64,000 nt of DNA. Source: Candidatus Moraniibacteriota bacterium (GTDB lineage Bacteria; Patescibacteriota; Minisyncoccia; Moranbacterales; DUUL01). Position numbers and translations under genes: made by a program. How positions within the stretch are numbered: the first letter of the stretch is position 1; each line of letters begins with the position of its first letter. Shown here piece by piece: positions 3,566 through 54,413 of the stretch. The notes under the pieces are model-generated. The model saw only the letters and a program-made list of their open reading frames with translations, did no database searches and had not been told where the DNA came from. The stretch spans positions 73,934-137,933 of the forward strand of contig JALVDV010000001.1 of the NCBI GenBank assembly GCA_027008775.1, read 5' to 3'.

Positions 3566-5593
3566 TCAGCGACTCTTGTAATCAGAATCATTCGCAACTT
3601 TGGGCAAGTCAAATCTTTCCCAAACAACCACGTTTTCACCAACATACACCGGCTGAAACTCCGGTTTTTTGGCAAAATTGACATCCTCATAACCTTTCCG
3701 GACAACAAGATATTTCGTTCCCGTTTTAGCAAAACATTTTTCCGCCTCGGCCGAGAAAGGTCGGGACATCATTTCTCGTGTACAAGTTTCTCGTTGCGAA
3801 TAAGGATCATCATAACGACGATCATAGGTTCGGGAAAGAGGGTACCGGTAGCCTCTCATAAAAAATAGCTTCATCCAAGTATCCCCGGGAAGAAAACGAT
3901 GATCCTTCAAAATAATGTCTTTTGCCGAAGTCCTTTCCGCCAAATAAACAGCCGACAAATAAGTCTGCATTACCGCCGAATTTTCAACTTCCCGATGCTG
4001 ATTGACGTTTATTTCCCGAGCCAAACCAACCACAGATAAAACTCCCAAGAAAAATACCAGCCACCAGGTTATCACCTGCTTGTTCAGTTTACTATACAAC
4101 CAGCCCAAGAAATAAACAAAACCAAAACCGGCCAACAAAGAAACAGGAAAAGTCAAATAGGTGATAATCCTCCGCGAAGGAATATCAACCATCAGCCAAG
4201 CCGGTTTCCAACTCATCAAAAAAATAATTCCCGCCCATAGCCACAACAAAGAAAGCCCCGCCAATGGCCAAATCAATTCTTCTTTCGGCCTCTTTTGTTC
4301 CTGCCGAAAACGGCGCCAATAAAGAATCAATGCCAGGAAGGAAATAAAAACAAAAATCAAAGCAAAGGTGACACGCCAAGCTCCCAAACGATCAACAATG
4401 GTCATCAGAGAAAAGCCCACTCGCGTTAATTTTACCGGCTCGCCTACAGCCGTTTTAACCGCCCCCGGATTTAAGTAAGAGGGAGTTCTAACAATCGTTA
4501 AAAAAACAATTCCCAGTAAAATCAAAAAGAGAGATGTTGGTTGCCAAAACAAAAACAAAGGTTTTTTGATGATCTGCCAAATTCTTTTGAATTTAAGACC
4601 CTGGAAGACAAAAAGCAAAGTTAACCAACCCAGCAGAAGAGCTAATAAAACATAAAGCAAAGCAAAAGTGGAAAGATGGTGGGTATAAAGCAAAACCAAC
4701 AAAGAGATAATAAACAAATTAGCGAAAACAACTCTTTTTTCTTTTAACAACAAAAGTAAAGAATAGATGGCCAACAAAAAGAAAAAATTGCCCATCACAT
4801 TGCCTACCACACCGCCGGAAACAAATTTAATTTGCGGAGGAGTTATGGCGTAAAAAACTGAACTCAGAAAAAAAATCGCCAAAGCGCTGTCCCAAACGGT
4901 AATCCGAGGAAGAGACTGAAAAAGTTTTTTCAACAGCTTGTTAAAAAGCCCGGCCAAATAATAACTGAGAGCAAAAAGCAACAATAAACTCAAAACATTA
5001 AAAAGGGATAACCAGAGAATCGGAAGGGGACTGAGATAAGGAATATGCGTCATGATATTAATGGCCGCCAAGGATAAATGTTCGCCAATAATAAATTTTT
5101 CCGAATAATGTGGTAAAGATCCTTTTATACTGATGTAATTGGCCCAATAAATATGGTGCCCCAAATCGGTCGTCTTGGGAAAAATACCATCCGCCAAATA
5201 TTTCCCTCGGATTAATAAAGCTAAACTGAAAACCAAAATAAATAAAAGAATTTGCCGATAAGAAGGGGCAATATAGTCATTCTTTTCTTTCTCGTCGTTT
5301 TTCTCTTTTTTTTCAATGAAAGTCTGTCGCCATTTTTTTCCCGCCCACAAAAGAAAACAAAGAACTAAAACCGCCAACAATAAATTCTTGCGAGTAATAC
5401 CCAGGTGAAAATAATCCATACCAAGCATCAAAAAATCAATTACCGCCACCCCCAAGCCAAAAACAACAGGAATTATTTCCCAAAAAGAGAATTTTCTCTT
5501 TTCCGACACCAATAACAACCGCCACAACAGATAACCGGGACAAACAAAAAGAAAAAACAGGGCAAAATAATAAAGCAACAATTGGCTAAACAT
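3566..5593 (-). CDS. Large polytopic membrane protein, GT-C-like glycosyltransferase candidate with C-terminal soluble domain
   Basis: 675 aa with more than 12 predicted hydrophobic helices followed by a ~150-aa hydrophilic C-terminal domain. Located in a glycosyltransferase neighbourhood. Confidence 0.5.
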   Translation of the reverse strand: MFSQLLLYYFALFFLFVCPGYLLWRLLLVSEKRKFSFWEIIPVVFGLGVAVIDFLMLGMDYFHLGITRKNLLLAVLVLCFLLWAGKKWRQTFIEKKEKNDEKEKNDYIAPSYRQILLFILVFSLALLIRGKYLADGIFPKTTDLGHHIYWANYISIKGSLPHYSEKFIIGEHLSLAAINIMTHIPYLSPLPILWLSLFNVLSLLLLFALSYYLAGLFNKLLKKLFQSLPRITVWDSALAIFFLSSVFYAITPPQIKFVSGGVVGNVMGNFFFLLAIYSLLLLLKEKRVVFANLFIISLLVLLYTHHLSTFALLYVLLALLLGWLTLLFVFQGLKFKRIWQIIKKPLFLFWQPTSLFLILLGIVFLTIVRTPSYLNPGAVKTAVGEPVKLTRVGFSLMTIVDRLGAWRVTFALIFVFISFLALILYWRRFRQEQKRPKEELIWPLAGLSLLWLWAGIIFLMSWKPAWLMVDIPSRRIITYLTFPVSLLAGFGFVYFLGWLYSKLNKQVITWWLVFFLGVLSVVGLAREINVNQHREVENSAVMQTYLSAVYLAERTSAKDIILKDHRFLPGDTWMKLFFMRGYRYPLSRTYDRRYDDPYSQRETCTREMMSRPFSAEAEKCFAKTGTKYLVVRKGYEDVNFAKKPEFQPVYVGENVVVWERFDLPKVANDSDYKSR

Positions 5594-6420: not shown

Positions 6421-7002
6421 ATGAAAAAGAAAACTGAAAATTTAGTTCTGGCTCTATTCCTGATATTTCTAGGCTATTTTTTTGGCGACATCTCAGTCAA
6501 AATAAAAGAAAGCAAAAAGCCGACTCTTCCTAAAGAGGGAACAGCTACTCAACCAGATAATGCCAAGACACCCTTTCCCGATTTAAAAACTCTTCACCAA
6601 GACCTCAGAAAAGGTCGGGTTAAATATGTTATTGACGGCGACACAATTATCCTGCAAAACAGAGAGAAGGTGCGATACATTGGTATTGACGCTCCTGAAC
6701 GGGGAGGATGTTGGTATGAAACCGCCAAGCGCTATAACCAAAGACTTGTTGCCGGACAAACGATACAACTGGAAAAAGACAAATCTAACCGCGACCGCTA
6801 CCAAAGGCTGCTGCGTTACGTCTATTTGGAGAAGACAAATCCTCCACAGAGAATTTTTGTTAACTTAGAACTGATCAAAGCCGGTTTGGCTCAGGCCAAG
6901 GAATATAAACCGGACACCAAGTATCATCACTTATTTTCCGAAGCAGAAAAAGTCGCCCGCCAAAATAAACTTGGTCTTTGGAGTAATCAATGCGCTCCCT
7001 AA
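6421..7002 (+). CDS. Thermonuclease / staphylococcal-nuclease-like secreted nuclease
   Basis: N-terminal TM/signal sequence. Contains the SNase motifs VIDGDTI, IGIDAPE, DRYQRLL and VNLELIKAGLA. Confidence 0.8.
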   Translation: MKKKTENLVLALFLIFLGYFFGDISVKIKESKKPTLPKEGTATQPDNAKTPFPDLKTLHQDLRKGRVKYVIDGDTIILQNREKVRYIGIDAPERGGCWYETAKRYNQRLVAGQTIQLEKDKSNRDRYQRLLRYVYLEKTNPPQRIFVNLELIKAGLAQAKEYKPDTKYHHLFSEAEKVARQNKLGLWSNQCAP

Positions 7003-7021: not shown

Positions 7022-8218
7022 TTACAAATTTTTCAGAACTTCTAAATAACGTCTGCCAATATTTTCCCAACTGAAGTTCTCCAAAGTATAGCGACGCGCC
7101 TGTTTAATAAATTCCTCTTTCTCAAATCCCGGAGATAGCACTTCTTCAATTTTGTTTTTCCAAGCCAAAGAATTCTCCGGTTCCAACAGAAAACCGTTAA
7201 CGCCGTCCTTAATGGCGTCTTTTAAGCCTTGCAAATCGGCTGCCAAAACTATTCTCTTACAAACAACTGCCTCCAAAGCATTGATGCCAAAACCTTCCGC
7301 CGAGCCTTTAATTTCAATGTTGGGGCTAATATACAAATCAGCCGTATTAAAAAGAATATTCATTTCTTTTTGCGGAACATTGGGAAACAGAATCACCCGC
7401 TTCTCCAAAGAATGTTTTTTAATATATTTTTGACAAGTAGTGTAATTTTCTTTGTCTCCGGCTGTTCGTGGATTATAACCGCCGGCGCCCACTAAAACAT
7501 AATCATCCGGCAAAAGAGGCATCACCTTGTCAATAAACCAATGTAATCCTTTGTGCGGAACAAAACGTCCCACTCGCAAAATAATTTTTTTGTCAGCGAA
7601 AAAAGAAATATCTTTCCCGGTTTTTCCCGCCAAAAGTTTCTCCAATTCCAACCGACTATGAGGTTCAAAAACTTTTTCCACATCAACCCCGTTGGGGATA
7701 AAAACACATTTTTCCCTTTCAATACCCAACTTCACCGCTTCCCCAATGGCATAATTGCCAACCATAATCAACTTGTCCAGACTGCGCAAAGCCGGAATAT
7801 TAAAAAATTTATACACCTTTCCCAAAAAGGTGTCTTGATAAACATAAGTCAAATCCAGAGCGTGAATAACGCTGACAAATTTTTGTCGTCTGTAAAAAAA
7901 ACGGAAAAATCTTCCCACCGGCGCTAAAACACCGTCACCAAAAAGAACAACATCATATTTTGGCAAAAGAAAAGGCAACCGTCCCATTAATCTCAATAGA
8001 AAAAAAGGCAGATTTTTTTTACCTTTTTTATTGGCAATTATCCTGGTTGTCGTTAATTTACGTAGAGCTTTCCCTAAGTTATAATTCTGGTCCTCAATCC
8101 CTCCCAGAACGGGCGGATAGGCTCGCGAAATAAATAAAACCCTCAGATCTTTTTTGACAATATCTTTTGACATTCTCCGAAGAATTAACTCATTTTCCGC
8201 CGACGCGCTTTCCGCCAA
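7022..8218 (-). CDS. Glycosyltransferase family 4 (group 1)
   Basis: 398 aa with a C-terminal GT4 signature (EGFGINALEAVVCKRIVLAADLQGLKDAIKDGVNGFLLEPEN). It overlaps the upstream gene by 34 bp, so an internal start (MSKDIVKK, ~8173) is possible. Confidence 0.75.
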   Translation of the reverse strand: MAESASAENELILRRMSKDIVKKDLRVLFISRAYPPVLGGIEDQNYNLGKALRKLTTTRIIANKKGKKNLPFFLLRLMGRLPFLLPKYDVVLFGDGVLAPVGRFFRFFYRRQKFVSVIHALDLTYVYQDTFLGKVYKFFNIPALRSLDKLIMVGNYAIGEAVKLGIEREKCVFIPNGVDVEKVFEPHSRLELEKLLAGKTGKDISFFADKKIILRVGRFVPHKGLHWFIDKVMPLLPDDYVLVGAGGYNPRTAGDKENYTTCQKYIKKHSLEKRVILFPNVPQKEMNILFNTADLYISPNIEIKGSAEGFGINALEAVVCKRIVLAADLQGLKDAIKDGVNGFLLEPENSLAWKNKIEEVLSPGFEKEEFIKQARRYTLENFSWENIGRRYLEVLKNL

Positions 8219-9284: not shown

Positions 9285-10613
9285 TCAACGGCCAATTCCT
9301 TTATAAACCACTCCCGCCTTTTCAATATCATCCTTGTCCAAAGCGTTAACTCCGTCAACAATAACTTTAACCTTATACTCTTTCAACATTTCACCATCCA
9401 GGTCTTGAAATTCCCGATGATTGGTTACCAAAATAACCGCCTCCGCTTCTCGCAAAAGCTCAGTCAAGGAATTAACATCGGAACGCTTGGGAATATGCGG
9501 ATCAAAAGAAACTATTTCCGCCTTCTTTTTACGTAGCTCCGCCACAATATCATAGTAGGGCGATTCCCGATCGTCATCAACATTCGGTTTGTAGGCAATC
9601 CCCAGCAAACCAACCTTTGTTCCGTTCAAAGGCATTTTTAAATCATTCAATTTTTCTTGCAAAAGACTAACTGTATAAGCCGGCATAGAATTGTTAATCG
9701 CTCGGGATGTTCGTAAAAATTTGTGATCAAAACCGGCTCTCTTCGCGCGCTCAATCAAATAATAAGGATCAACCGGAATACAGTGCCCGCCAATACCGCG
9801 ACTGGGGTAGTGCGCCAAGAAAGCAAAAGGTTTGGTAGCCGCTCCGTCAATTACATCCTTAACATCAATTCCCAAGACATCAAAAGATTTGGCCAATTCA
9901 TTGACAAAAGCAATATTAATATCTCTGAAAGAATTTTCCACCACCTTGCAAGCCTCCGCCTCTCTAATGTGTTTCATCGGCTTAATTGGCGCGTCAATAA
10001 TCGTCTCGTAAAACCGCAACGCTTTCCGTAAACCCTCTTGGGTAAAGGCTCCCACCACTCGCGGAATGTTGGTCACGTTCCACTTGGGATCTCCGGGATT
10101 TATTCTCTCCGGACAATGAGCGATAAAAACATCTTTGCCAACTTCATGTCCCTTCGCCTCAAAAATTGGTTTGACAATTTCTTCACTGACTCCCGGATTA
10201 ACCGTAGATTCCAAAACAACCAAAGCGCCCGGTTTTAAATTCTCGGCCACACTCTCCGAAGCTTGCCGAACCGGACCAATATCCGGATTGTGAAATTCGT
10301 CCACCGGCGTCGGCACACAAATTAAAACAATATCACACTCTTTGATTCTGGCAGTGTCGGTAGTGGCCTCAATGGGGTTTTCTGGCAATTTTTTTTCCAA
10401 ATACTCATCCTCAATAGGGGATTGCCCGGAATTGATAATGTCCGCTTTTTCTTGGGTTCTTTCAAAACCCAGAACCCGAAACCCTTTTTCCCTGGCTCTA
10501 ACAGCCAAAGGCAAGCCGACATAACCCAGGCCGACCACTCCTACCGTTTCTCTTTCAAGTTTTTGACTTCTATCTTTTTCTTTTCTTTTTTCCGTCTTTG
10601 TTTTTTCAGACAT
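9285..10613 (-). CDS. Nucleotide-sugar dehydrogenase (UDP-glucose/GDP-mannose 6-dehydrogenase family)
   Basis: N-terminal Rossmann motif VGVVGLGYVGLPLAV. Contains the catalytic-region motif GGHCIPVDPYYL and a C-terminal UDPG_MGDP_dh domain. Confidence 0.8.
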   Translation of the reverse strand: MSEKTKTEKRKEKDRSQKLERETVGVVGLGYVGLPLAVRAREKGFRVLGFERTQEKADIINSGQSPIEDEYLEKKLPENPIEATTDTARIKECDIVLICVPTPVDEFHNPDIGPVRQASESVAENLKPGALVVLESTVNPGVSEEIVKPIFEAKGHEVGKDVFIAHCPERINPGDPKWNVTNIPRVVGAFTQEGLRKALRFYETIIDAPIKPMKHIREAEACKVVENSFRDINIAFVNELAKSFDVLGIDVKDVIDGAATKPFAFLAHYPSRGIGGHCIPVDPYYLIERAKRAGFDHKFLRTSRAINNSMPAYTVSLLQEKLNDLKMPLNGTKVGLLGIAYKPNVDDDRESPYYDIVAELRKKKAEIVSFDPHIPKRSDVNSLTELLREAEAVILVTNHREFQDLDGEMLKEYKVKVIVDGVNALDKDDIEKAGVVYKGIGR

Positions 10614-18128: not shown

Positions 18129-18578
18129 ATGTTCAAATTTTTCCGAAAAAAGAAAAAGCAAATGTCAGCCAACGACAGCCAAGTAACCGATAACAGCGCC
18201 GTCAAAAATAACGACAATAATTCCACCGAAAATTCCAATCAAGAATCCAACAAACAACAATCTGTTAAAAAGGAGCAGGGCAGTCAAGCGGATATGATGC
18301 AAGCTGTTATGAGTGGGGCTCTCGGCGGCGCCGATATCAACACTCTCCTGGACAATATAGACACCTCCCAACTGTCTCTCAAAGAAAAAATGGGACTAAA
18401 AATGCTGAAAAAACTCCCCCGTCATAAACAAGAAGAAATCATCCGCCAAGCCCTCAACCCGCAAGAATTATACAAACACAAAGACAAAGTTTTGCAACAA
18501 ATTGATGAAATGGTTAAAGCCGGACAAATAGACAAATCGCAAGCCGAAGCCATCAAATCACAAATGGGATTAAGATAA
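18129..18578 (+). CDS. Hypothetical protein with low-complexity N/S/Q-rich N-terminus
   Basis: 149-aa ORF followed by a strong terminator; no domain recognised. Confidence 0.5.
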   Translation: MFKFFRKKKKQMSANDSQVTDNSAVKNNDNNSTENSNQESNKQQSVKKEQGSQADMMQAVMSGALGGADINTLLDNIDTSQLSLKEKMGLKMLKKLPRHKQEEIIRQALNPQELYKHKDKVLQQIDEMVKAGQIDKSQAEAIKSQMGLR

Positions 18579-18629
18579 TTTTTTCCTTTAATCTCAAAAT
18601 TTAATCCCAAAACAAAACTGAACAACCTC

Positions 18630-18670
18630 AGGCGCCGGGAGAAAAACCTCCGGCGCCTGTTTTATTTTTA
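18630..18670 (+). terminator. Rho-independent terminator
   Basis: Perfect 9-bp GC-rich stem AGGCGCCGG/CCGGCGCCT with an 11-nt loop, followed by TTTTATTTTTAA. Confidence 0.75.
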
Positions 18671-18902
18671 ATACTTGGTTTTTAATATCTGTAGAGATCT
18701 TAGCCTCCCCAAAGGTTTTTTACTAAATTTTTTTACTAAATTTCCCGAAAACGGGGCATTAAATTCTTGAACTGGTATTTTTACCAGCTTTTCAGCTAAA
18801 AATAAGTGTTTTTAAAAGAGAATATTACGACCCCACTGTCAAAACAAAAAGGTATTTTCTGGAGAAAAAAGCAACTACTACTCCATTTAACCCCAAAAGT
18901 AG

Positions 18903-18929
18903 CCACACCCCCTTGACAAAAAACAAAAA
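18903..18929 (+). promoter_or_regulatory. Promoter-like module P1 (TTGACA-15-TAGAAT)
   Basis: CCCCTTGACAAAAAAC...GCTAGAATGACGCGTCAAGG. Shares a ~20-nt upstream and ~10-nt downstream context with P2. Confidence 0.4.
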
Positions 18930-19028
18930 AAGCTAGAATGACGCGTCAAGGTGGAGGTTGAAACTGAAGCAAAAAAGAATAAATAAATTCCATAAACCAT
19001 TTCAGACCACCAACCCCTTGACAAAAAA

Positions 19029-19058
19029 TCAATAGTATGCTATAATACCGCGTCAGGC
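19029..19058 (+). promoter_or_regulatory. Consensus sigma70 promoter P2 (TTGACA-18-TATAAT)
   Basis: CCCCTTGACAAAAAATCAATAGTATGCTATAATACCGCGTCAGG. Both hexamers are exact consensus. Lies in a ~1.5 kb ORF-poor region. Confidence 0.55.
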
Positions 19059-19322
19059 TGAGAAAAGGTGAACAGACAGTTAAACAATTTAAAACAGAGA
19101 GAGCAAGAAAAGAAGCTGAGTGGGCAAAGTAAAAAAGAGCAAAATAGCAGAACCTTAGACAACTAAATAGAAGCGATGCTGGAGAGAGACGTCGCTGGTA
19201 AACACCAACAAGCAGACTATTTTCCGTTTGTTAAACTATTAAATCAAAAGCCGAAAAAGGAATAAAGTCTTCACTTGTTTGGTCGCAAATCCTGAAATCA
19301 AAGGTAACAAATTTTACAGTTT

Positions 19323-19393
19323 TTCTCCGGCCACCAGTCAAAAGACTGTAAAATTTGTTACCTTTTTTGTTTGTCCAGCAACCGCTTGCCAAA
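19323..19393 (+). terminator. Long perfect hairpin (18-bp stem, 24-nt loop) followed by T-tract; terminator or structured RNA element
   Basis: GGTAACAAATTTTACAGT ... ACTGTAAAATTTGTTACC are exact reverse complements, followed by TTTTTTGTTTG. Lies ~270-320 nt downstream of the P2 -10 element. Confidence 0.55.
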
Positions 19394-19838
19394 AAAAATT
19401 GCGGGAGAAAATAGCGGAGGAGAGAGATAAAGTTTGGGACAGAAGTAATTTTAATAATTGGTCCCAAAACTCATCTTCGCTATTTTCTTCCGACAAGGAG
19501 GAAAATAGTTTTTTGATATTGTAAAAATATCACAAAATAAAATTGTCGTTTTGAATAACTTAGAGCCAAATTTTGGAGAGAGATGTTATTCAAGACCGAC
19601 AATTATCTTAGATGGAATAAAACTTCTCCGACAAACAACGCTTTGCCGAGAAGACATTGCCCTAACGGTAATGTTGTCAACCGAATATTTTTTAGACCCG
19701 AAGCGGAGTAAAAAATATTCCTACGACACTTCCATCACCCGTTCTCGCAAGGAGATCGGCCGAGCGTGAGGACTAACCACCCTGGCGCTCGGGAATTTCC
19801 TTGCGAAAGGAAAAAGTTGTTCTTTGAAATACCGCTAA

Positions 19839-19880
19839 CGCGGTCGCAGAAAGTCGCAGACTAAACGCAGACTAACGCGG
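19839..19880. repeat. Direct-repeat block CGCGGTCGCAGAAAGTCGCAGACTAAACGCAGACTAACGCGG (left copy)
   Basis: Shares CGGTCGCAGAAA and reiterated CGCAGAC/ACGCAGA units with a block at 21676-21737. The two blocks bracket the GC-rich ORF. Confidence 0.5.
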
Positions 19881-20155
19881 AAGAATTATGTAATAGTTCT
19901 TTGAAAAAATCCCATTTTCTTTGTCTCCATTTCATCTCCTTAATGGCCAACCTCCCCAACCCAACCTTTTTCGAGTGGTTTTTGGGACAGCAATTTCAAA
20001 AAAATTGCCACCCCAAAAACCGCTCGGAAGAGTGGGAAAAATAGGGAAAAGGGATTGTGAACATGCTCCACAATTCCTGATTCAGCAGGATGGTCCTGTT
20101 GGACAAAAAAATTACCGCGCTACCGACGGTCAAAATATCGGAGAAGGAGAAAAAA

Positions 20156-21450
20156 TGAGAAGACATCAGATCAACATTACAAGCATTACCGGACTGAATA
20201 CTAGGGGCCTCTCCTCTGAGGAGGTGAGAGAGGTTGTGGAATGGAAGGAGATAGTCAACGCTGGGCAAATTCCCATAGATTGGAAGCCCAGCTGGGACAG
20301 AGCCGGGCTTGAGGAACTCGTAGACTCCGCAAAGGAGTATTACGAGGAAAGAACGGGATTAATCCTACCACATAACCTCGCGGTTCACGGCCCCTGGGTC
20401 GGTCATCCTAATGGTTACAAATTATATGAGGGTGACCGGTTCGACTCTGCTCCGGCAGAAGAAATGGTCAGCATTGCTGCTCGCTTTGCGAGCTGGCTAA
20501 AAATTATTGCTGACCAGAAATTGGTTGGTCTCCAGCGGTTGCTGGAGAAAAATTTAAGTTCAAGGGGGATGAACTCCCCACGAACAAAAATCGATCCGTA
20601 CCGTTTGCTACGTGTTTGGAGTTCTCCGCACACTGCGGAGAAAATGTTCTGGAAGTCCTATAAAAGGGCGTGGCAGATTCTCAAGCCCTTTGGGCTTGCT
20701 CCAAGCTGGAAAGCTGTTGGGCAGGTTATGACCAATTGGCATTCCTATCGTGTTGGCAAGATGGCATTTATCATTGCTGCTCGGACAGTGAACCAAATTT
20801 TGTCTCTTAAAGTGAACCGGGAATTTACCGGTAAGTCAATCAAAATTTTGGAGAAATCCAGAGGAATCGGTCAATTTGTCAATGATGGTGATTATGCGAT
20901 CTTGGCATGGGCGGTGGATCGAATTGAGACTGGAGAATTTTCTTGTATTCGCGAGGCAATTGCGAATGCAGGTCGGCTGGAATGGGATAAAACAGATGGT
21001 GTCGGTTTATGGATCGACCCGAGCTTAACGAAAGAAATCCACCGTGTAGAAGTTATACACGGATGGGATAGACAAGGATGGTTTTATTTCCTTCTCCGCC
21101 AGAAAGGAACCGGGCGGAGTTACCACTTCAGGCCATGGAAACATACAGCTCGTGAAGCTGTAAAATTCGCCATCGGTGAATGGCACAAACAGGTCAGAGC
21201 GGAGCGCAAAAAACGTAACATCCTTAAGGTTCTTCAGCCGAAGAATGCATCCGTTCTGGTTTGGATCCAGGATTCTCTGGATTCTGGGAATTGTTATATT
21301 GGAACGAGAGCTTGGTCTGAACGCAACGGTTTCAACGGGGCTATGTTTGCCCCTGCGGAGAAACTCCTAAAGTTCGCAGATGATTTGCGTGTCTTCCGGG
21401 TTCTCCAGACGGTGGCCGAAAAGGTTGCTGAGTTGAAACTTAAATATTGA
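20156..21450 (+). CDS. Hypothetical protein, ORFan of visibly higher GC than surrounding genes (431 aa from internal ATG with GGAGAAGGAG RBS)
   Basis: Long ORF; the track start at 19921 has no RBS and lies in non-coding-looking sequence. The ATG at 20156 is preceded by GGAGAAGGAGAAAAA. No RT (YxDD), TnpB or HUH motifs were found. GC-rich codon usage is atypical for this window. Confidence 0.55.
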
Positions 21451-21455
21451 ATCTC

Positions 21456-21502
21456 TCACCCGCCACGCCGGGTGATACAAAAATTTTTTTAGTTCTTTTT
21501 TT
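21456..21502 (+). terminator. Probable terminator after the ORFan
   Basis: TCACCCG-CCACGC-CGGGTGA hairpin followed by TACAAAAATTTTTTTAGTTCTTTTTTT. Confidence 0.45.
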
Positions 21503-21675
21503 AGAAATTTCTAATTTCCTCCGGGGCGTGGACTGTGGGAATAGGTTTCCGGGAGCAAGTTGTGTGGTTTACAACCTCTGCTCCCACCATTTCTTGAAAT
21601 CGGAAAATGATAAAACATTTTGCGGTTTCAAATAGATGGTTTCTTTTTCTACTAGCACGGTCGCAGAAAAATGCC

Positions 21676-21737
21676 GACCTTACACAGACTGACGCAGAAA
21701 GACACAGACACACACGGAACCAATAAAATAAACAAAC
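21676..21737. repeat. Direct-repeat block CACGGTCGCAGAAAAATGCCGACC...GACGCAGAAAGACACAGACACACACGG (right copy)
   Basis: See 19839-19880; same CGGTCGCAGAAA core and CGCAGA/CACAGAC reiterations. Confidence 0.5.
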
Positions 21738-21884
21738 TAAAAAATTAACAAATCAAATCGCTACAAGCTCGCAGGGCAGAAAAGGTGGTGAGCAAATTCT
21801 TTATCTCTCTCCAAGAATAATTCACTTATGCCTTTTGCTTATTACCCTGCGAACTTGTGGCGATTTCTTAATCCAGCGAGAATT

Positions 21885-21904
21885 CCCCGCCTGTAAGGGC
21901 GGGG
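21885..21904. repeat. Solo GC-rich hairpin CCCCGCC-TGTAAG-GGCGGGG (REP-like, or tnpA-less derivative of the IS200-like element at 53.5 kb)
   Basis: Exact reverse complement of the hairpins at 53533-53552 and 54028-54047. Its flanks (ATAGATAC on one side, ARTTCTCGCTG on the other, after reverse-complementing) match the outer flanks of the left and right hairpins of that element. Confidence 0.7.
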
Positions 21905-21996
21905 GTATCTATTTCAACCAGACAAATCCCTTTTGTGAAAATGATGCCCAACACCAAAAACTTTTTCTCTCGCCAAGACAAAACCGGCGCAACTCT

Positions 21997-22032
21997 TGAC
22001 AAATTTTCTATTTTCCTTAATATAAAAACCTG
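21997..22032 (+). promoter_or_regulatory. Promoter upstream of RND adaptor gene (TTGACA-N17-TAATAT)
   Basis: CTCTTGACAAATTTTCTATTTTCCTTAATATAAAAACC. Confidence 0.45.
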
Positions 22033-22122
22033 TTGCTTACGGGAAAAACAAGCTTAATTAGAGAAAAATTAAACCAACAAAATCCCTCTGACAGATCAAA
22101 AAAATTAATTTTTTACAATAAA

Positions 22123-28148: not shown

Positions 28149-28176
28149 ATTATGATATTATCAATAATATCATAAT
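28149..28176. repeat. 28-bp palindromic repeat ATTATGATATTAT-CA-ATAATATCATAAT, copy 1
   Basis: 13-nt arms are exact reverse complements around a 2-nt centre. One of 4 exact copies in the window. Confidence 0.85.
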
Positions 28177-28204
28177 AAAAGCTTCAACAACAGCAGGATT
28201 GGGT

Positions 28205-28232
28205 ATTATGATATTATTGATAATATCATAAT
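28205..28232. repeat. 28-bp palindromic repeat, copy 2 (opposite orientation, centre TG)
   Basis: ATTATGATATTATTGATAATATCATAAT, 28 bp after copy 1, ~210 bp upstream of ruvA. Confidence 0.85.
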
Positions 28233-49952: not shown

Positions 49953-50015
49953 AACAATCTTACTTACTACAAAATCCAAATAGCATAACTCGAACGTATC
50001 CTTCGGAAATTTACG

Positions 50016-53524: not shown

Positions 53525-54058
53525 ATAGATACCCCCGCCCTTACAGGCGGGGTTCTTTTTATATTACAAGCTGCGCTTGTCCCGCATCTTCCTCGCCTTG
53601 TTTACGGACATATTCTTGAATTATTTTTTCATTGATACCGACAGTGGATACAAAATATCCTTTTGACCATATTCCTTTGTTGTCCCAATACACTTTTTTG
53701 AGAAACTTGAATTTGTTTTTTAAGCTTCTGCCAGTGTTGGATTTTATTGTTTCCACAACTTTACTTATGGCATATTTGGGGGGAATTATCATATGTAGAT
53801 GAATATGGTCTTTGTCGATTCCCATTTCAATATAAATCCGGTCCGGATAATATTTATTCACTTCTTGGAGTTTTATACGGAGACAGGAATCAACTCCTTT
53901 GACCAGTATTTTCCTTCTGTATCTGGTTGGCCACACTATGTGATATTGGGTTCCGTATACACTATGGTTTGCTTTGTATAGTTTCATATCCTCCATTATA
54001 CAGGAAGATGCGGGATTTGGCTCTCATCCCCGCCCTTACAGGCGGGGAGTTCTCGCTG
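53525..54058 (-). mobile_element. IS200-like element (tnpA only) bounded by direct-repeat GC hairpins and internal inverted repeats
   Basis: CCCCGCC-CTTACA-GGCGGGG occurs at 53533-53552 and 54028-54047 in the same orientation. Subterminal inverted repeats TCCCGCATCTTCC (53581-93) and GGAAGATGCGGGA (54003-15). The GC-rich ends contrast with the AT-rich host sequence. Confidence 0.8.
53559..53996 (-). CDS. tnpA: IS200/IS605-family Y1 (HUH) transposase TnpA
   Basis: YHIVWPTRYRRKIL, HUH motif HIHLHMI, and catalytic-Tyr region GYFVSTVG; 145 aa, typical of IS200 TnpA. Confidence 0.9.
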   Translation of the reverse strand: MEDMKLYKANHSVYGTQYHIVWPTRYRRKILVKGVDSCLRIKLQEVNKYYPDRIYIEMGIDKDHIHLHMIIPPKYAISKVVETIKSNTGRSLKNKFKFLKKVYWDNKGIWSKGYFVSTVGINEKIIQEYVRKQGEEDAGQAQLVI

Positions 54059-54413
54059 AATTAAATATATGAAACTCATCAAAACGAGAATCTTTAATAA
54101 CCAGCATGATATCAACAGATTCTAAATCAGGTGGAATATTTTTTTCTTTGAATATCGCCAACCCCTCATTCTTACCAACAACCCAGACGTCCTCATGTTC
54201 GGCAACAAATACTTCTTTAAACTTTTCTATCGCTGATTGGAAATCACTTCCTCGCACTCGCACGGTTATATCCAAATCTTTTTTGGTTAACATTCCGGAA
54301 ACCGCCGAACTACCCACATGTTCAACTTCCGCCTCCGGTACCAATTCTAAGATTTTGTTTTTTATTTTTGCATATTCCGCCTCAATCACTTCTTTGCATA
54401 AGATGAGATACAT
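54036..54413 (-). CDS. GrpB-family protein (UPF0157, nucleotidyltransferase-like)
   Basis: VEHVGSSAVSGMLTKKDLDITV matches the GrpB motif HVGSTAVPGL.AKPIIDI. Start at internal ATG (MYLILCKE). Confidence 0.6.
   Translation of the reverse strand: MYLILCKEVIEAEYAKIKNKILELVPEAEVEHVGSSAVSGMLTKKDLDITVRVRGSDFQSAIEKFKEVFVAEHEDVWVVGKNEGLAIFKEKNIPPDLESVDIMLVIKDSRFDEFHIFNSARTPRL

What the first reader, a model, noticed from the sequence alone, without database searches (positions are those of the whole stretch)
18890..19393. Duplicated near-consensus sigma70 promoter modules feeding an ~300-nt stretch that ends in a perfect 18-bp-stem/U-tract hairpin: candidate novel ncRNA
P2 (TTGACA-18-TATAAT, 19029-19058) and P1 (18903-18929) share upstream (CCCCTTGACAAAAAA) and downstream (GCGTCA(A)GG) context, i.e. 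a duplicated module. A transcript from P2 would run ~300 nt before the 19323-19393 hairpin (GGTAACAAATTTTACAGT/ACTGTAAAATTTGTTACC + TTTTTTGTTTG). The interval has no credible ORF; the only one is 29 aa with a weak RBS. It does not resemble tmRNA, RNase P, SRP or 6S RNA by eye.
Basis: seen in the sequence. Interest (0 to 1): 0.6.

Follow-up and report, generated by a model that had tools for sequence, protein, structure and literature searches.

The report
Promoter and attenuator of long leader
The promoters and hairpin are real, but they look like the front end of a 1.1-kb, heavily folded, non-coding leader that controls an uncharacterised gene, rather than a separate small-RNA gene; no described RNA family matches it.

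Summary
Every quoted sequence exists, 10-20 nt from the stated coordinates. P2 is TTGACA-17-TGcTATAAT (19018-19046), the only perfect match in 64 kb. P1 (18913-18939) is a duplicate with a 15-nt spacer. The hairpin has an 18-bp perfect stem (25 bp with one mismatch), 19300-19365, plus a U-tract.

The stand-alone ncRNA reading is only partly supported. The RNA body (19053-19299) folds no better than shuffles (z -0.34). No other promoter precedes the next gene, an orphan ORF (20155-21450, no Pfam domain, no fold match).

Three distant loci with this ORF family share one layout: a TGCTATA-type consensus promoter (tandem at ~105 nt in two loci) 1.0-1.25 kb before the ATG, a hairpin plus U-tract at +250 to +400, then about 780 nt of extreme structure (z -13.7, -9.1, -5.5).

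GGAGAGAGA-type motifs are strongly enriched in the leaders, on the sense strand only. In the window, one sits in the 5' arm of an antiterminator that competes with a second terminator (19479-19509).

Best reading: a leaky attenuator in a factor-controlled leader, releasing a ~320-nt 5' RNA as by-product or decoy. No transcript data exist.

The parts
18909..18939 (+). P1: duplicated promoter module. CCCCTTGACAAAAAA, then TTGACA 18913-18918, a 15-nt spacer and TAGAAT 18934-18939. Probably weak or decayed.
   Evidence: Not listed by the scan because the spacer is 15 nt.
19014..19046 (+). P2: consensus promoter. TTGACA 19018-19023, a 17-nt spacer and TG-extended TATAAT 19041-19046. The inferred transcription start is about 19052-19055.
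   Evidence: 12/12 match, TG present. (the only exact match in 64 kb). nhmmer matches 19011-19066 to the L016 promoter and start, E 6e-4.
19058..19065 (+). CTGAGAAA near the 5' end of the transcript. L002 also has CTGAGAAA and L016 has TTGAGAGA at the same offset after the -10.
19172..19196 (+). 7-bp hairpin presenting CUGGAGAGAGA in its loop (motif at 19181-19189). It is the only stable local structure in the body of the candidate RNA.
   Evidence: L002 has the same kind of hairpin at 6861-6885.
19300..19373 (+). T1: 25-bp AU-rich hairpin (18 bp perfect) plus UUUUUUGUUUG. Read as a leaky intrinsic terminator (attenuator), possibly also an RNase III site.
   Evidence: Analogous hairpin plus U7 in L002 at about 7100-7160 and in L015 at 5184-5222.
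19379..19396 (+). Degenerate third copy of the promoter module (CAACCGCTTGCCAAAAAA), with no usable -10.
   Evidence: (repeat D2).
19402..19492 (+). Antiterminator hairpin, dG -41.2 kcal/mol. Its 5' arm contains GGAGGAGAGAGATAAAG (motif 19419-19432). Its 3' arm is the 5' arm of T2.
   Evidence: (repeats I4, I23).
19479..19515 (+). T2: 13-bp perfect stem with a 5-nt loop, followed by UUUUUGAU. Mutually exclusive with the antiterminator.
19541..19604 (+). 19-bp hairpin with UUUUGGAGAGAGAU in its loop (motif 19575-19583).
19376..20154 (+). Rest of the leader: a chain of about 12 long hairpins with extreme predicted structure.
   Evidence: MFE -278.5 against -183.9 +/- 6.9 for shuffles, z -13.65. 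The minus strand folds 16.5 kcal/mol worse. L002 z -9.1 and L015 z -5.5.
19752..19873 (+). Leader block homologous to L015 5592-5728. It includes CTAACCACCCTGG (19773-19785), which is also in L009.
   Evidence: (E 4e-4).
19819..19906 (+). Two exact GTTCTTTGAAA (boxA-like) elements, at 19819 and 19896. They flank about 10-nt periodic repeats of the form ACGCAGACnn (19835-19882).
   Evidence: (the only two exact copies in the window).
20047..20154 (+). Conserved, covarying proximal 5' UTR element that ends in GGAGAAGGAG just before the ATG.
20155..21450 (+). Orphan ORF of 431 aa. The start is set from the family alignment. The public gene call starts at 20032.
   Evidence: No Pfam, PHROG, NCBIfam or PADLOC hit and no fold match.
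21755..21866 (.). 22-bp hairpin downstream of the ORF. Its loop carries CTTTATCTCTCTCC (21799-21812), the exact complement of the leader 14-mer at 19419-19432.
   Evidence: (repeats I3, I18). A minus-strand GGAGAGAGA copy also lies downstream of the ORF in L002 and L011.

Best explanation
The interval is the promoter-proximal first module of an approximately 1.1-kb untranslated, multi-hairpin leader of the orphan gene at 20155-21450.

Proposed mechanism:
1. P2 fires strongly. P1 is a weaker duplicate.
2. The first ~250 nt are A-rich and mostly unstructured, carrying one GGAGAGAGA hairpin loop.
3. The 25-bp hairpin plus U-tract (T1) stops a fraction of transcripts, releasing a ~320-nt 5' RNA.
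4. The rest read on into a second, switchable terminator. Its 5' arm (GCUAUUUUCUUCC) can pair with an upstream near-copy of the terminator's 3' arm to form an antiterminator, or with the 3' arm itself to form T2.
5. The GGAGAGAGA motif lies in the antiterminator's 5' arm, recurs in hairpin loops along the leader, and resembles the GGAGAAGGAG immediately before the ATG.
6. A trans-acting factor that recognises this motif is therefore proposed to set both read-through and translation. The released 5' RNA and the upstream motif copies would act as decoys or cooperative sites. The factor could be an RNA-binding protein, possibly the ORF product itself.

Shown: the sequence anatomy, the motif enrichment, the alternative pairings, and the conserved layout in other loci. 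Inferred: transcription, termination efficiency, and the existence and identity of the factor.
For: - Only one promoter-like site on the + strand lies between 17500 and the ORF. P2 is unique in 64 kb.
- Promoter-to-ATG distance: window 1137 nt, L002 1242 nt, L015 1227/1119/1013 nt. No genes were called in between.
- L015 has three tandem TTGACA-17-TGCTATAnn modules spaced 108 and 106 nt, compared with 105 nt for P1/P2.
- A hairpin plus U-tract lies at +256 (window), +343 (L002) and +381 (L015).
- GAGAGAG counts in the leaders against 1000 dinucleotide shuffles: 4 vs 0.10, 7 vs 0.28 and 2 vs 0.23. GAGAGA in L016: 11 vs 1.9. No GAGAGAG occurs on the opposite strand of any leader.
- GGAGAGAGA in the whole window: 6 vs 0.31 expected.
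- Antiterminator and terminator overlap, with dG -41.2 and -16.6 kcal/mol.
- Leader structure z -13.65, -9.1 and -5.5, against controls of -1.65 and +0.18.
- The + strand folds 16.5 kcal/mol better than the minus strand.
- The proximal UTR has 21 of 35 predicted pairs with compensatory changes across 10 loci, so the leader is constrained as RNA on this strand.
Against: - There are no expression data of any kind.
- The distal leader, including the whole reader interval, has no alignable sequence in other loci beyond the promoter and short motifs. Homology of T1 is therefore positional only, from 3 loci.
- The T2-type overlap was found only in the window.
- The motif is only marginally more unpaired than other purine-rich 6-mers (0.58 vs 0.49, p = 0.057).
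- Other family loci (L003, L010, L012, L013) have short leaders with closer promoters and no upstream GA cluster, so the long leader is not obligatory for the gene.
- T1 is atypical for this genome. Clear terminators here are short and GC-rich (18629-18660 and 21884-21905).
- No candidate binding protein was identified.
Confidence: 0.45

Rival explanations
1. A stand-alone trans-acting small RNA gene. P2 to T1 would make a discrete ~320-nt RNA, for example a decoy or sponge presenting GGAGAGAGA. Its function would be independent of the downstream ORF, which would have its own undetected promoter.
For: - A consensus promoter and a strong hairpin plus U-tract.
- In L016 a homologous promoter and 5' end drive a GAGAGA-rich stretch. 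It lies 3.9 kb from the family ORF, with other ORFs in between.
- The motif is multiplied without positional conservation, which is the pattern of sponge RNAs such as CsrB/RsmZ (own knowledge).
Against: - The body is unstructured (z -0.34).
- It carries only one or two motif copies before T1. Most copies lie after T1.
- No promoter-like site lies between 19400 and 20155.
- The promoter-to-ATG distance is conserved.
- No Rfam match.
Confidence: 0.2
2. The features act on DNA rather than RNA. They would be ends or binding arrays of a mobile or formerly mobile island, with TTGACA-containing repeats, GGAGAGAGATAAAG in inverted orientation on both sides of the ORF, 10-nt periodic repeats and long palindromes serving as protein-binding or single-strand hairpin sites.
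For: - A 14-nt perfect inverted pair, 19419-19432 and 21799-21812, and a 48-nt direct repeat, 19835-19882 and 21652-21699, bracket the ORF.
- The same arrangement, with a minus-strand copy downstream, occurs in L002 and L011.
- The 3.4-kb segment is absent next to the 149-aa gene in relatives.
- The ORF has an SD-like GGAG pair in a genome whose genes almost never have one.
- The minus strand also folds well (z -7.9).
Against: - No transposase, recombinase or replication domain, and no fold match.
- No match in the phage, plasmid or viral collections.
- Motif copies in the leaders are strictly on one strand.
- The + strand folds better than the minus strand.
- Compensatory changes involving G-U pairs in the proximal UTR argue for RNA.
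- The inverted 14-mers are internal, not at recognisable element ends, and no target-site duplication was found.
Confidence: 0.12
3. Non-functional debris: decaying tandem duplications of a promoter and ribosome-binding-site segment in a fast-evolving accessory region, with hairpins as by-products.
For: - P1 has a defective spacer and the third copy has lost its -10.
- The motif resembles the ORF's own pre-ATG sequence.
- The distal leader is not conserved in sequence.
Against: - Leader length, promoter type, the terminator-like hairpin, motif enrichment and extreme structure recur in three loci whose upstream-region GC ranges from 31% to 53%.
- A z of -13.65 is not expected from drift.
Confidence: 0.08

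Closest known systems
Protein-mediated transcription attenuation leaders (Bacillus subtilis trp leader with TRAP; PyrR leaders)
   Same: - Overlapping antiterminator and terminator hairpins.
- A short purine-rich repeated motif lies in the 5' arm of the antiterminator, so binding there would favour the terminator.
- A related motif sits at the translation start.
   Different: - The motif is GGAGAGAGA in scattered hairpin loops, not 11 closely spaced (G/U)AG triplets.
- The leader is about 1.1 kb, with a dozen extra hairpins.
- No TRAP- or PyrR-like protein was identified.
- The overlap was seen only in the window.
CsrB/RsmY/RsmZ sponge RNAs and CsrA-controlled leaders
   Same: - Many copies of a GGA-containing motif, often in hairpin loops.
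- One copy-like sequence overlaps the ribosome-binding region.
- Copy number and position vary between relatives while the motif is kept.
   Different: - No Rfam CsrB/Rsm match.
- The motif is longer and GA-repetitive.
- It lies within an mRNA leader.
- CsrA was not found in the 64 kb available (uninformative).
Type III toxin-antitoxin loci (ToxIN, CptIN)
   Same: The order is strong promoter, repetitive non-coding RNA, leaky terminator, then protein gene. This layout sets an excess of RNA over protein.
   Different: - No exact tandem 34-36-nt repeats.
- The protein is 431 aa, with no PADLOC or fold match to ToxN/AbiQ-type toxins.
rrn-type tandem P1-P2 promoters with a boxA antitermination leader, and boxA upstream of CRISPR arrays (PMC7665894)
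   Same: - Two strong promoters about 105 nt apart.
- A long untranslated transcript.
- Two exact copies of GTTCTTTGAAA, which resembles the Firmicute-type boxA (own knowledge).
   Different: - No rRNA or CRISPR array follows.
- The boxA-like elements lie after T1 and T2.
- This organism's own rRNA-leader boxA is unknown, so the match is only a lead.

Membership tests
Sigma-70-type promoter | -35 TTGACA and -10 TATAAT separated by 16-18 nt, optionally with a TG extension | tested here: met
   P2 matches 12/12 with a 17-nt spacer and TG. P1 fails the spacer criterion at 15 nt.
Intrinsic (Rho-independent) terminator | Stable hairpin immediately followed by a U-rich tract | tested here: met
   T1 has dG -29.4 and is followed by UUUUUUGUUUG. 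T2 has dG -16.6 and is followed by UUUUUGAU. T1's stem (25 bp, AU-rich, 16-nt loop) is atypical, and the consensus scan lists T2 but not T1.
Intrinsic (Rho-independent) terminator | Termination demonstrated in transcripts | not testable with these tools
   No RNA data are available.
Known housekeeping or curated RNAs (6S, tmRNA, RNase P, SRP, any Rfam family) | Covariance-model match at gathering score | tested here: not met
   The window and eight homologous loci return only tRNAs. An E<10 scan of 18500-22100 gives only miRNA-hairpin noise.
Transcription attenuator (antiterminator/terminator switch) | Mutually exclusive helices sharing one strand, with the terminator downstream | tested here: met
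   19479-19491 pairs either with 19403-19415 or with 19497-19509. This was found for T2 only. No convincing competitor was found for T1.
Transcription attenuator (antiterminator/terminator switch) | An identified effector (protein, tRNA, metabolite or ribosome) that selects the fold | not testable with these tools
   The motif in the antiterminator arm suggests a binding factor, but none was identified.
CsrB/Rsm-type sponge RNA | Multiple GGA motifs in hairpin loops | tested here: inconclusive
   The motif is enriched. Its loop preference is only marginal (0.58 vs 0.49 unpaired, p = 0.057).
CsrB/Rsm-type sponge RNA | A cognate CsrA/RsmA protein in the genome | not testable with these tools
   Only 64 kb of the genome is available, and it has no CsrA signature.
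Type III toxin-antitoxin | Tandem direct repeats of about 34-36 nt upstream of the toxin gene | tested here: not met
   No such array was found.
Type III toxin-antitoxin | ToxN/AbiQ-type endoribonuclease toxin | tested here: not met
   No PADLOC or Pfam hit and no structural match.
boxA / Nus-factor antitermination leader | A boxA matching the organism's rRNA-leader boxA | tested here: inconclusive
   GTTCTTTGAAA occurs exactly twice, only in this leader. Related copies exist in L003 and L009. The rRNA operon of this genome is not in the window.
Insertion sequence / transposon | Terminal inverted repeats at the element ends plus a transposase or recombinase | tested here: not met
   A 14-nt inverted pair exists but is internal. 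The ORF has no recognisable catalytic domain or fold.

The most novel reading that the evidence does not exclude
The whole unit is a previously undescribed RNA-protein system of uncultivated bacteria. It comprises the tandem promoters, the GA-loop RNA, the ~780-nt hairpin chain, the covarying switch-like 5' UTR, the orphan ORF whose own coding region is unusually structured, and the complementary CU loop in the 3' region. In this reading the orphan protein binds the GGAGAGAGA loops of its own transcript. The excess 5' RNA would neutralise or scaffold the protein, analogous in logic to type III toxin-antitoxin or RNA-guided/RNP modules but unrelated to any known one.
Probability: 0.15. Interest if true: 0.8.

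Novelty: new variant of a known kind. Interest (0 to 1): 0.55.

Why it matters
If the model holds, this is a new attenuation-type leader RNA class attached to a sizeable protein family. That family has 418 clusters at 50% identity and no domain, fold or functional annotation.

The leader gives that family its first experimental handle: a defined promoter, two candidate terminators, a 9-nt motif and a covarying 5' UTR switch. All can be tested in vitro.

It also shows that the scan's 'novel ncRNA' calls can be the tips of much longer regulatory leaders.

Tried and rejected
- Rfam at gathering and permissive thresholds, on the window and on eight homologous loci: nothing. ARAGORN: only tRNA-Val at 50015.
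- blastn of 18580-20160 against phage and plasmid collections: no match. Viral contig scan with the ORF profile: none.
- Synteny through the adjacent 149-aa gene gave five loci, but similarity ends at that gene's stop, so no orthologous intergenic region was available.
- blastn and nhmmer of the distal leader against other loci matched only the promoter and first bases (L016), a mid-leader block at 19752-19873 (L015) and the proximal ~420 nt.
- tblastx for hidden small proteins gave only frame-independent hits in the proximal UTR. Pfam on six small ORFs found nothing.
- The profile search of the word-indexed protein collection added nothing useful.
- 6S-like rod or ornate fold for 19053-19299: rejected, z -0.34.
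- A competitor helix for T1: only a weak 7-8-bp AU pairing, seen by eye. Not claimed.
- The idea that GGAGAGAGA is just this organism's Shine-Dalgarno: rejected, because its genes almost never have one.
- A regex search for CsrA or Hfq in the window found none, which is uninformative.
- Literature searches for the motif and for ncRNAs of candidate-phyla bacteria found nothing relevant.

Full report
**Observation.**
- P2 is TTGACA (19018-19023), a 17-nt spacer, and a TG-extended TATAAT (19041-19046). It is the only exact TTGACA-N16-18-TATAAT in the 64-kb window, against 0.06 expected.
- P1 is TTGACA (18913-18918), a 15-nt spacer, and TAGAAT (18934-18939). It is a duplicate with a defective spacer and no TG.
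- The shared 15-mer CCCCTTGACAAAAAA is exact at 18909 and 19014, and a degenerate third copy lies at 19382.
- The hairpin has an 18-bp perfect stem (19303-19320 / 19345-19362), extensible to 25 bp with one mismatch. Its dG is -29.4 kcal/mol and it is followed by TTTTTTGTTTG.
- Nothing in the interval looks coding.
- No Rfam family, tRNA or tmRNA matches.

**Context.** Upstream lie glyA, folD and a 149-aa gene that ends at 18578 with a clean GC-rich terminator (18629-18660). Downstream, the next gene is an ORF called from 20032 in the public contig. The family alignment places its start at ATG 20155, preceded by GGAGAAGGAG. The non-coding stretch is therefore 1.58 kb. HlyD and AcrB genes follow at 22033, with their own promoter-like site at 21996.

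**The ORF.**
- It has no Pfam, PHROG, NCBIfam or PADLOC hit.
- The family is nevertheless real and sizeable: 418 cluster representatives at E <= 1e-3.

**Is the segment an accessory island?** Homologues of the 149-aa gene in five other genomes lose all similarity right after that gene. The 3.4-kb segment from 18580 to 22033 is therefore not seen in the relatives that could be found.

**Comparison with other loci carrying the ORF family.** Twelve further loci were retrieved. At nucleotide level only the ORF and about 110-420 nt before it align.
- In L002 (a single-cell genome; upstream-region GC 31%), a TTGACA-17-TGcTATACT promoter lies 1242 nt before the ATG.
- In L015 (hydrothermal vent metagenome; upstream-region GC 53%), three tandem TTGACA-17-TGCTATAnn modules spaced 108 and 106 nt lie 1227, 1119 and 1013 nt before the ATG.
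- In the window, P2 lies 1137 nt before the ATG and P1 105 nt further upstream.
- All seven promoters of this set have the -10 region TGCTATA.
- Gene callers found no gene in these leaders.
- A hairpin followed by a U-tract lies 256, 343 and 381 nt after the promoter in the three loci.
- No other promoter-like site lies on the + strand between the hairpin and the ORF in the window or in L002. In L015 the consensus scan lists only the first of the three tandem modules, and none downstream of them.
- More distant members (L012, L013; also L003 and L010) have promoters or promoter-like sites only 190-400 nt before the ATG and no long leader. The long leader is therefore an add-on of one subgroup.

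**A repeated motif.**
- GGAGAGAGA occurs three times on the + strand of the window leader (19181, 19419, 19575), with a GAGAGAGC at 19097. It occurs once on the minus strand just after the ORF (21804-21812). That is six copies in the window against 0.31 expected.
- Against 1000 dinucleotide shuffles of each leader, GAGAGAG occurs 4 times vs 0.10 (window), 7 vs 0.28 (L002) and 2 vs 0.23 (L015). GAGAGA occurs 11 times vs 1.9 in a promoter-driven stretch of L016. No GAGAGAG copy lies on the opposite strand of any leader.
- The copies often sit in hairpin loops: a 7-bp stem at 19172-19196 and a 19-bp stem at 19541-19604, with L002 equivalents. A formal unpaired-probability test is only suggestive (0.58 vs 0.49, p = 0.057).
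- The motif resembles the sequence just before the ORF's ATG in all loci (GGAGAGGAG or GGAGAAGGAG).
- It is not this organism's ordinary ribosome-binding site. About 2 of 40 genes in the window have GGAG within 25 nt of the start.
- Downstream of the ORF, a 22-bp hairpin (21755-21866) carries in its loop the exact 14-nt complement of 19419-19432. L002 and L011 have an equivalent minus-strand copy, with compensatory changes between their stems.

**Two terminators, one switchable.** A second element, T2 (19479-19509), has 13 perfect pairs and a 5-nt loop, then UUUUUGAU. The consensus scan picks it up. Its 5' arm, GCUAUUUUCUUCC, can pair instead with 19403-19415 (GGGAGAAAAUAGC), a near-copy of T2's own 3' arm (GGAGGAAAAUAGU). 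That alternative forms a 95-nt hairpin of -41.2 kcal/mol, against -16.6 for T2. This is the classical antiterminator/terminator arrangement. GGAGGAGAGAGAUAAAG lies in the 5' arm of the antiterminator. A factor bound to the motif would therefore free the shared strand and favour termination, the logic of TRAP at the B. subtilis trp leader (own knowledge). I found this overlap only in the window.

**Where the structure is.**
The z of -3.4 for the whole interval comes from T1.
- The remainder of the leader (19376-20154) is extreme: -278.5 kcal/mol against -183.9 +/- 6.9 for shuffles, z -13.65.
- The equivalent parts of L002 and L015 give z -9.1 and -5.5.
- Controls are folD at -1.65 and acrB at +0.18.
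- The minus strand folds 16.5 kcal/mol worse. Together with the strand-specific motif, this favours RNA on the + strand.
- The last ~170 nt before the ATG are conserved in ten loci. Of 35 predicted pairs, 21 keep pairing through changes on both sides. Read from that alignment, GGAAUUGUG can pair with a CACAAUUCC on either side, and an outer helix CCUGA/UAUCGG abuts the GGAG run. This looks like a translational switch.
- Two exact GTTCTTTGAAA elements, the only ones in the window, lie at 19819 and 19896. They resemble Firmicute-type boxA (own knowledge). boxA-dependent antitermination of long non-coding transcripts is documented (PMC7665894). This remains a lead only.

**Interpretation.** The ~320-nt terminated RNA would be a by-product or decoy.

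**Rivals.**
- A stand-alone sRNA (0.20). It is favoured by L016, where a homologous promoter and 5' end drive a GA-rich RNA 3.9 kb from the family ORF.
- DNA-level repeats of a mobile island (0.12). It is favoured by the inverted 14-mer, a 48-nt direct repeat flanking the ORF and the foreign-looking ribosome-binding site. It is disfavoured by strand specificity, the strand asymmetry of folding, covariation, and the absence of any transposase-like protein.
- Decaying duplications (0.08).

Everything about transcription, termination efficiency and the binding factor is inferred.

**Novelty.** No curated RNA family or described system matches. The parts (tandem promoters, attenuator, repeated loop motif) are of known kinds, but their combination and their link to an orphan protein family are new. 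An unexplained extra observation is that the ORF's own coding region is unusually structured (z -5.8 in the window, -3.8 in L002).

Noticed in passing
window 20047-20154 (aligned with L002, L003, L010-L016): Conserved ~170-nt 5' UTR element directly before the orphan ORF. RNAalifold predicts 35 pairs, 21 of them with compensatory changes. GGAAUUGUG can pair with CACAAUUCC on either side, and an outer helix abuts the GGAG run before the ATG. It looks like an undescribed cis-regulatory switch. No Rfam match.
   Followed up: partly
window 19819-19906 and 21637-21720; L003 4283-4345 and 5711-5810: A module made of a boxA-like GTTCTTTGAAA, a short GC hairpin and about 10-nt periodic repeats (ACGCAGACnn, 4-6 copies). 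One copy lies before and one after the ORF (a 48-nt direct repeat, 75% identical). The same module brackets genes in L003.
   Followed up: partly
[not shown]
   Followed up: partly
whole window (40 gene starts): Genes almost never have a Shine-Dalgarno sequence: about 2 of 40 have GGAG within 25 nt of the ATG. The orphan ORF has GGAGAAGGAG. This suggests a foreign origin or special translational control.
   Followed up: partly
window 21755-21866: A 22-bp hairpin after the ORF. Its loop holds CTTTATCTCTCTCC, the perfect complement of the leader 14-mer at 19419-19432. L002 (about 10470-10590) and L011 (about 2500-2590) have an equivalent hairpin, with compensatory changes between them.
   Followed up: partly
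L015 4774-5090: Three (possibly four) tandem promoter modules, TTGACA-17-TGCTATAnn, spaced about 105 nt apart. This is the same period as P1/P2 in the window.
   Followed up: partly
window 21868-21912, 54028-54064, 53525-53552: A short GC-rich terminator-like repeat (CCCCGCC...GGCGGGG with flanks) occurs three times in the window at 95-100% identity.
   Followed up: no
window 28149-28232: A 29-nt perfect inverted repeat (ATTATGATATTATCAATAATATCATAATA) with a 26-nt spacer.
   Followed up: no
window 18716-18741: An exact tandem 13-mer, TTTTTTACTAAAT x2, about 170 nt upstream of P1 in an AT-rich stretch. It could be an upstream promoter element or an operator.
   Followed up: no
L016 1-70 and 875-930; L009 230-400: Palindromic repeats of the type GTCATTCCCGCG...GCGGGAATCC or GTCATTGCGAGG... 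flank the GA-rich promoter-driven stretch in L016 and occur in the L009 leader.
   Followed up: no
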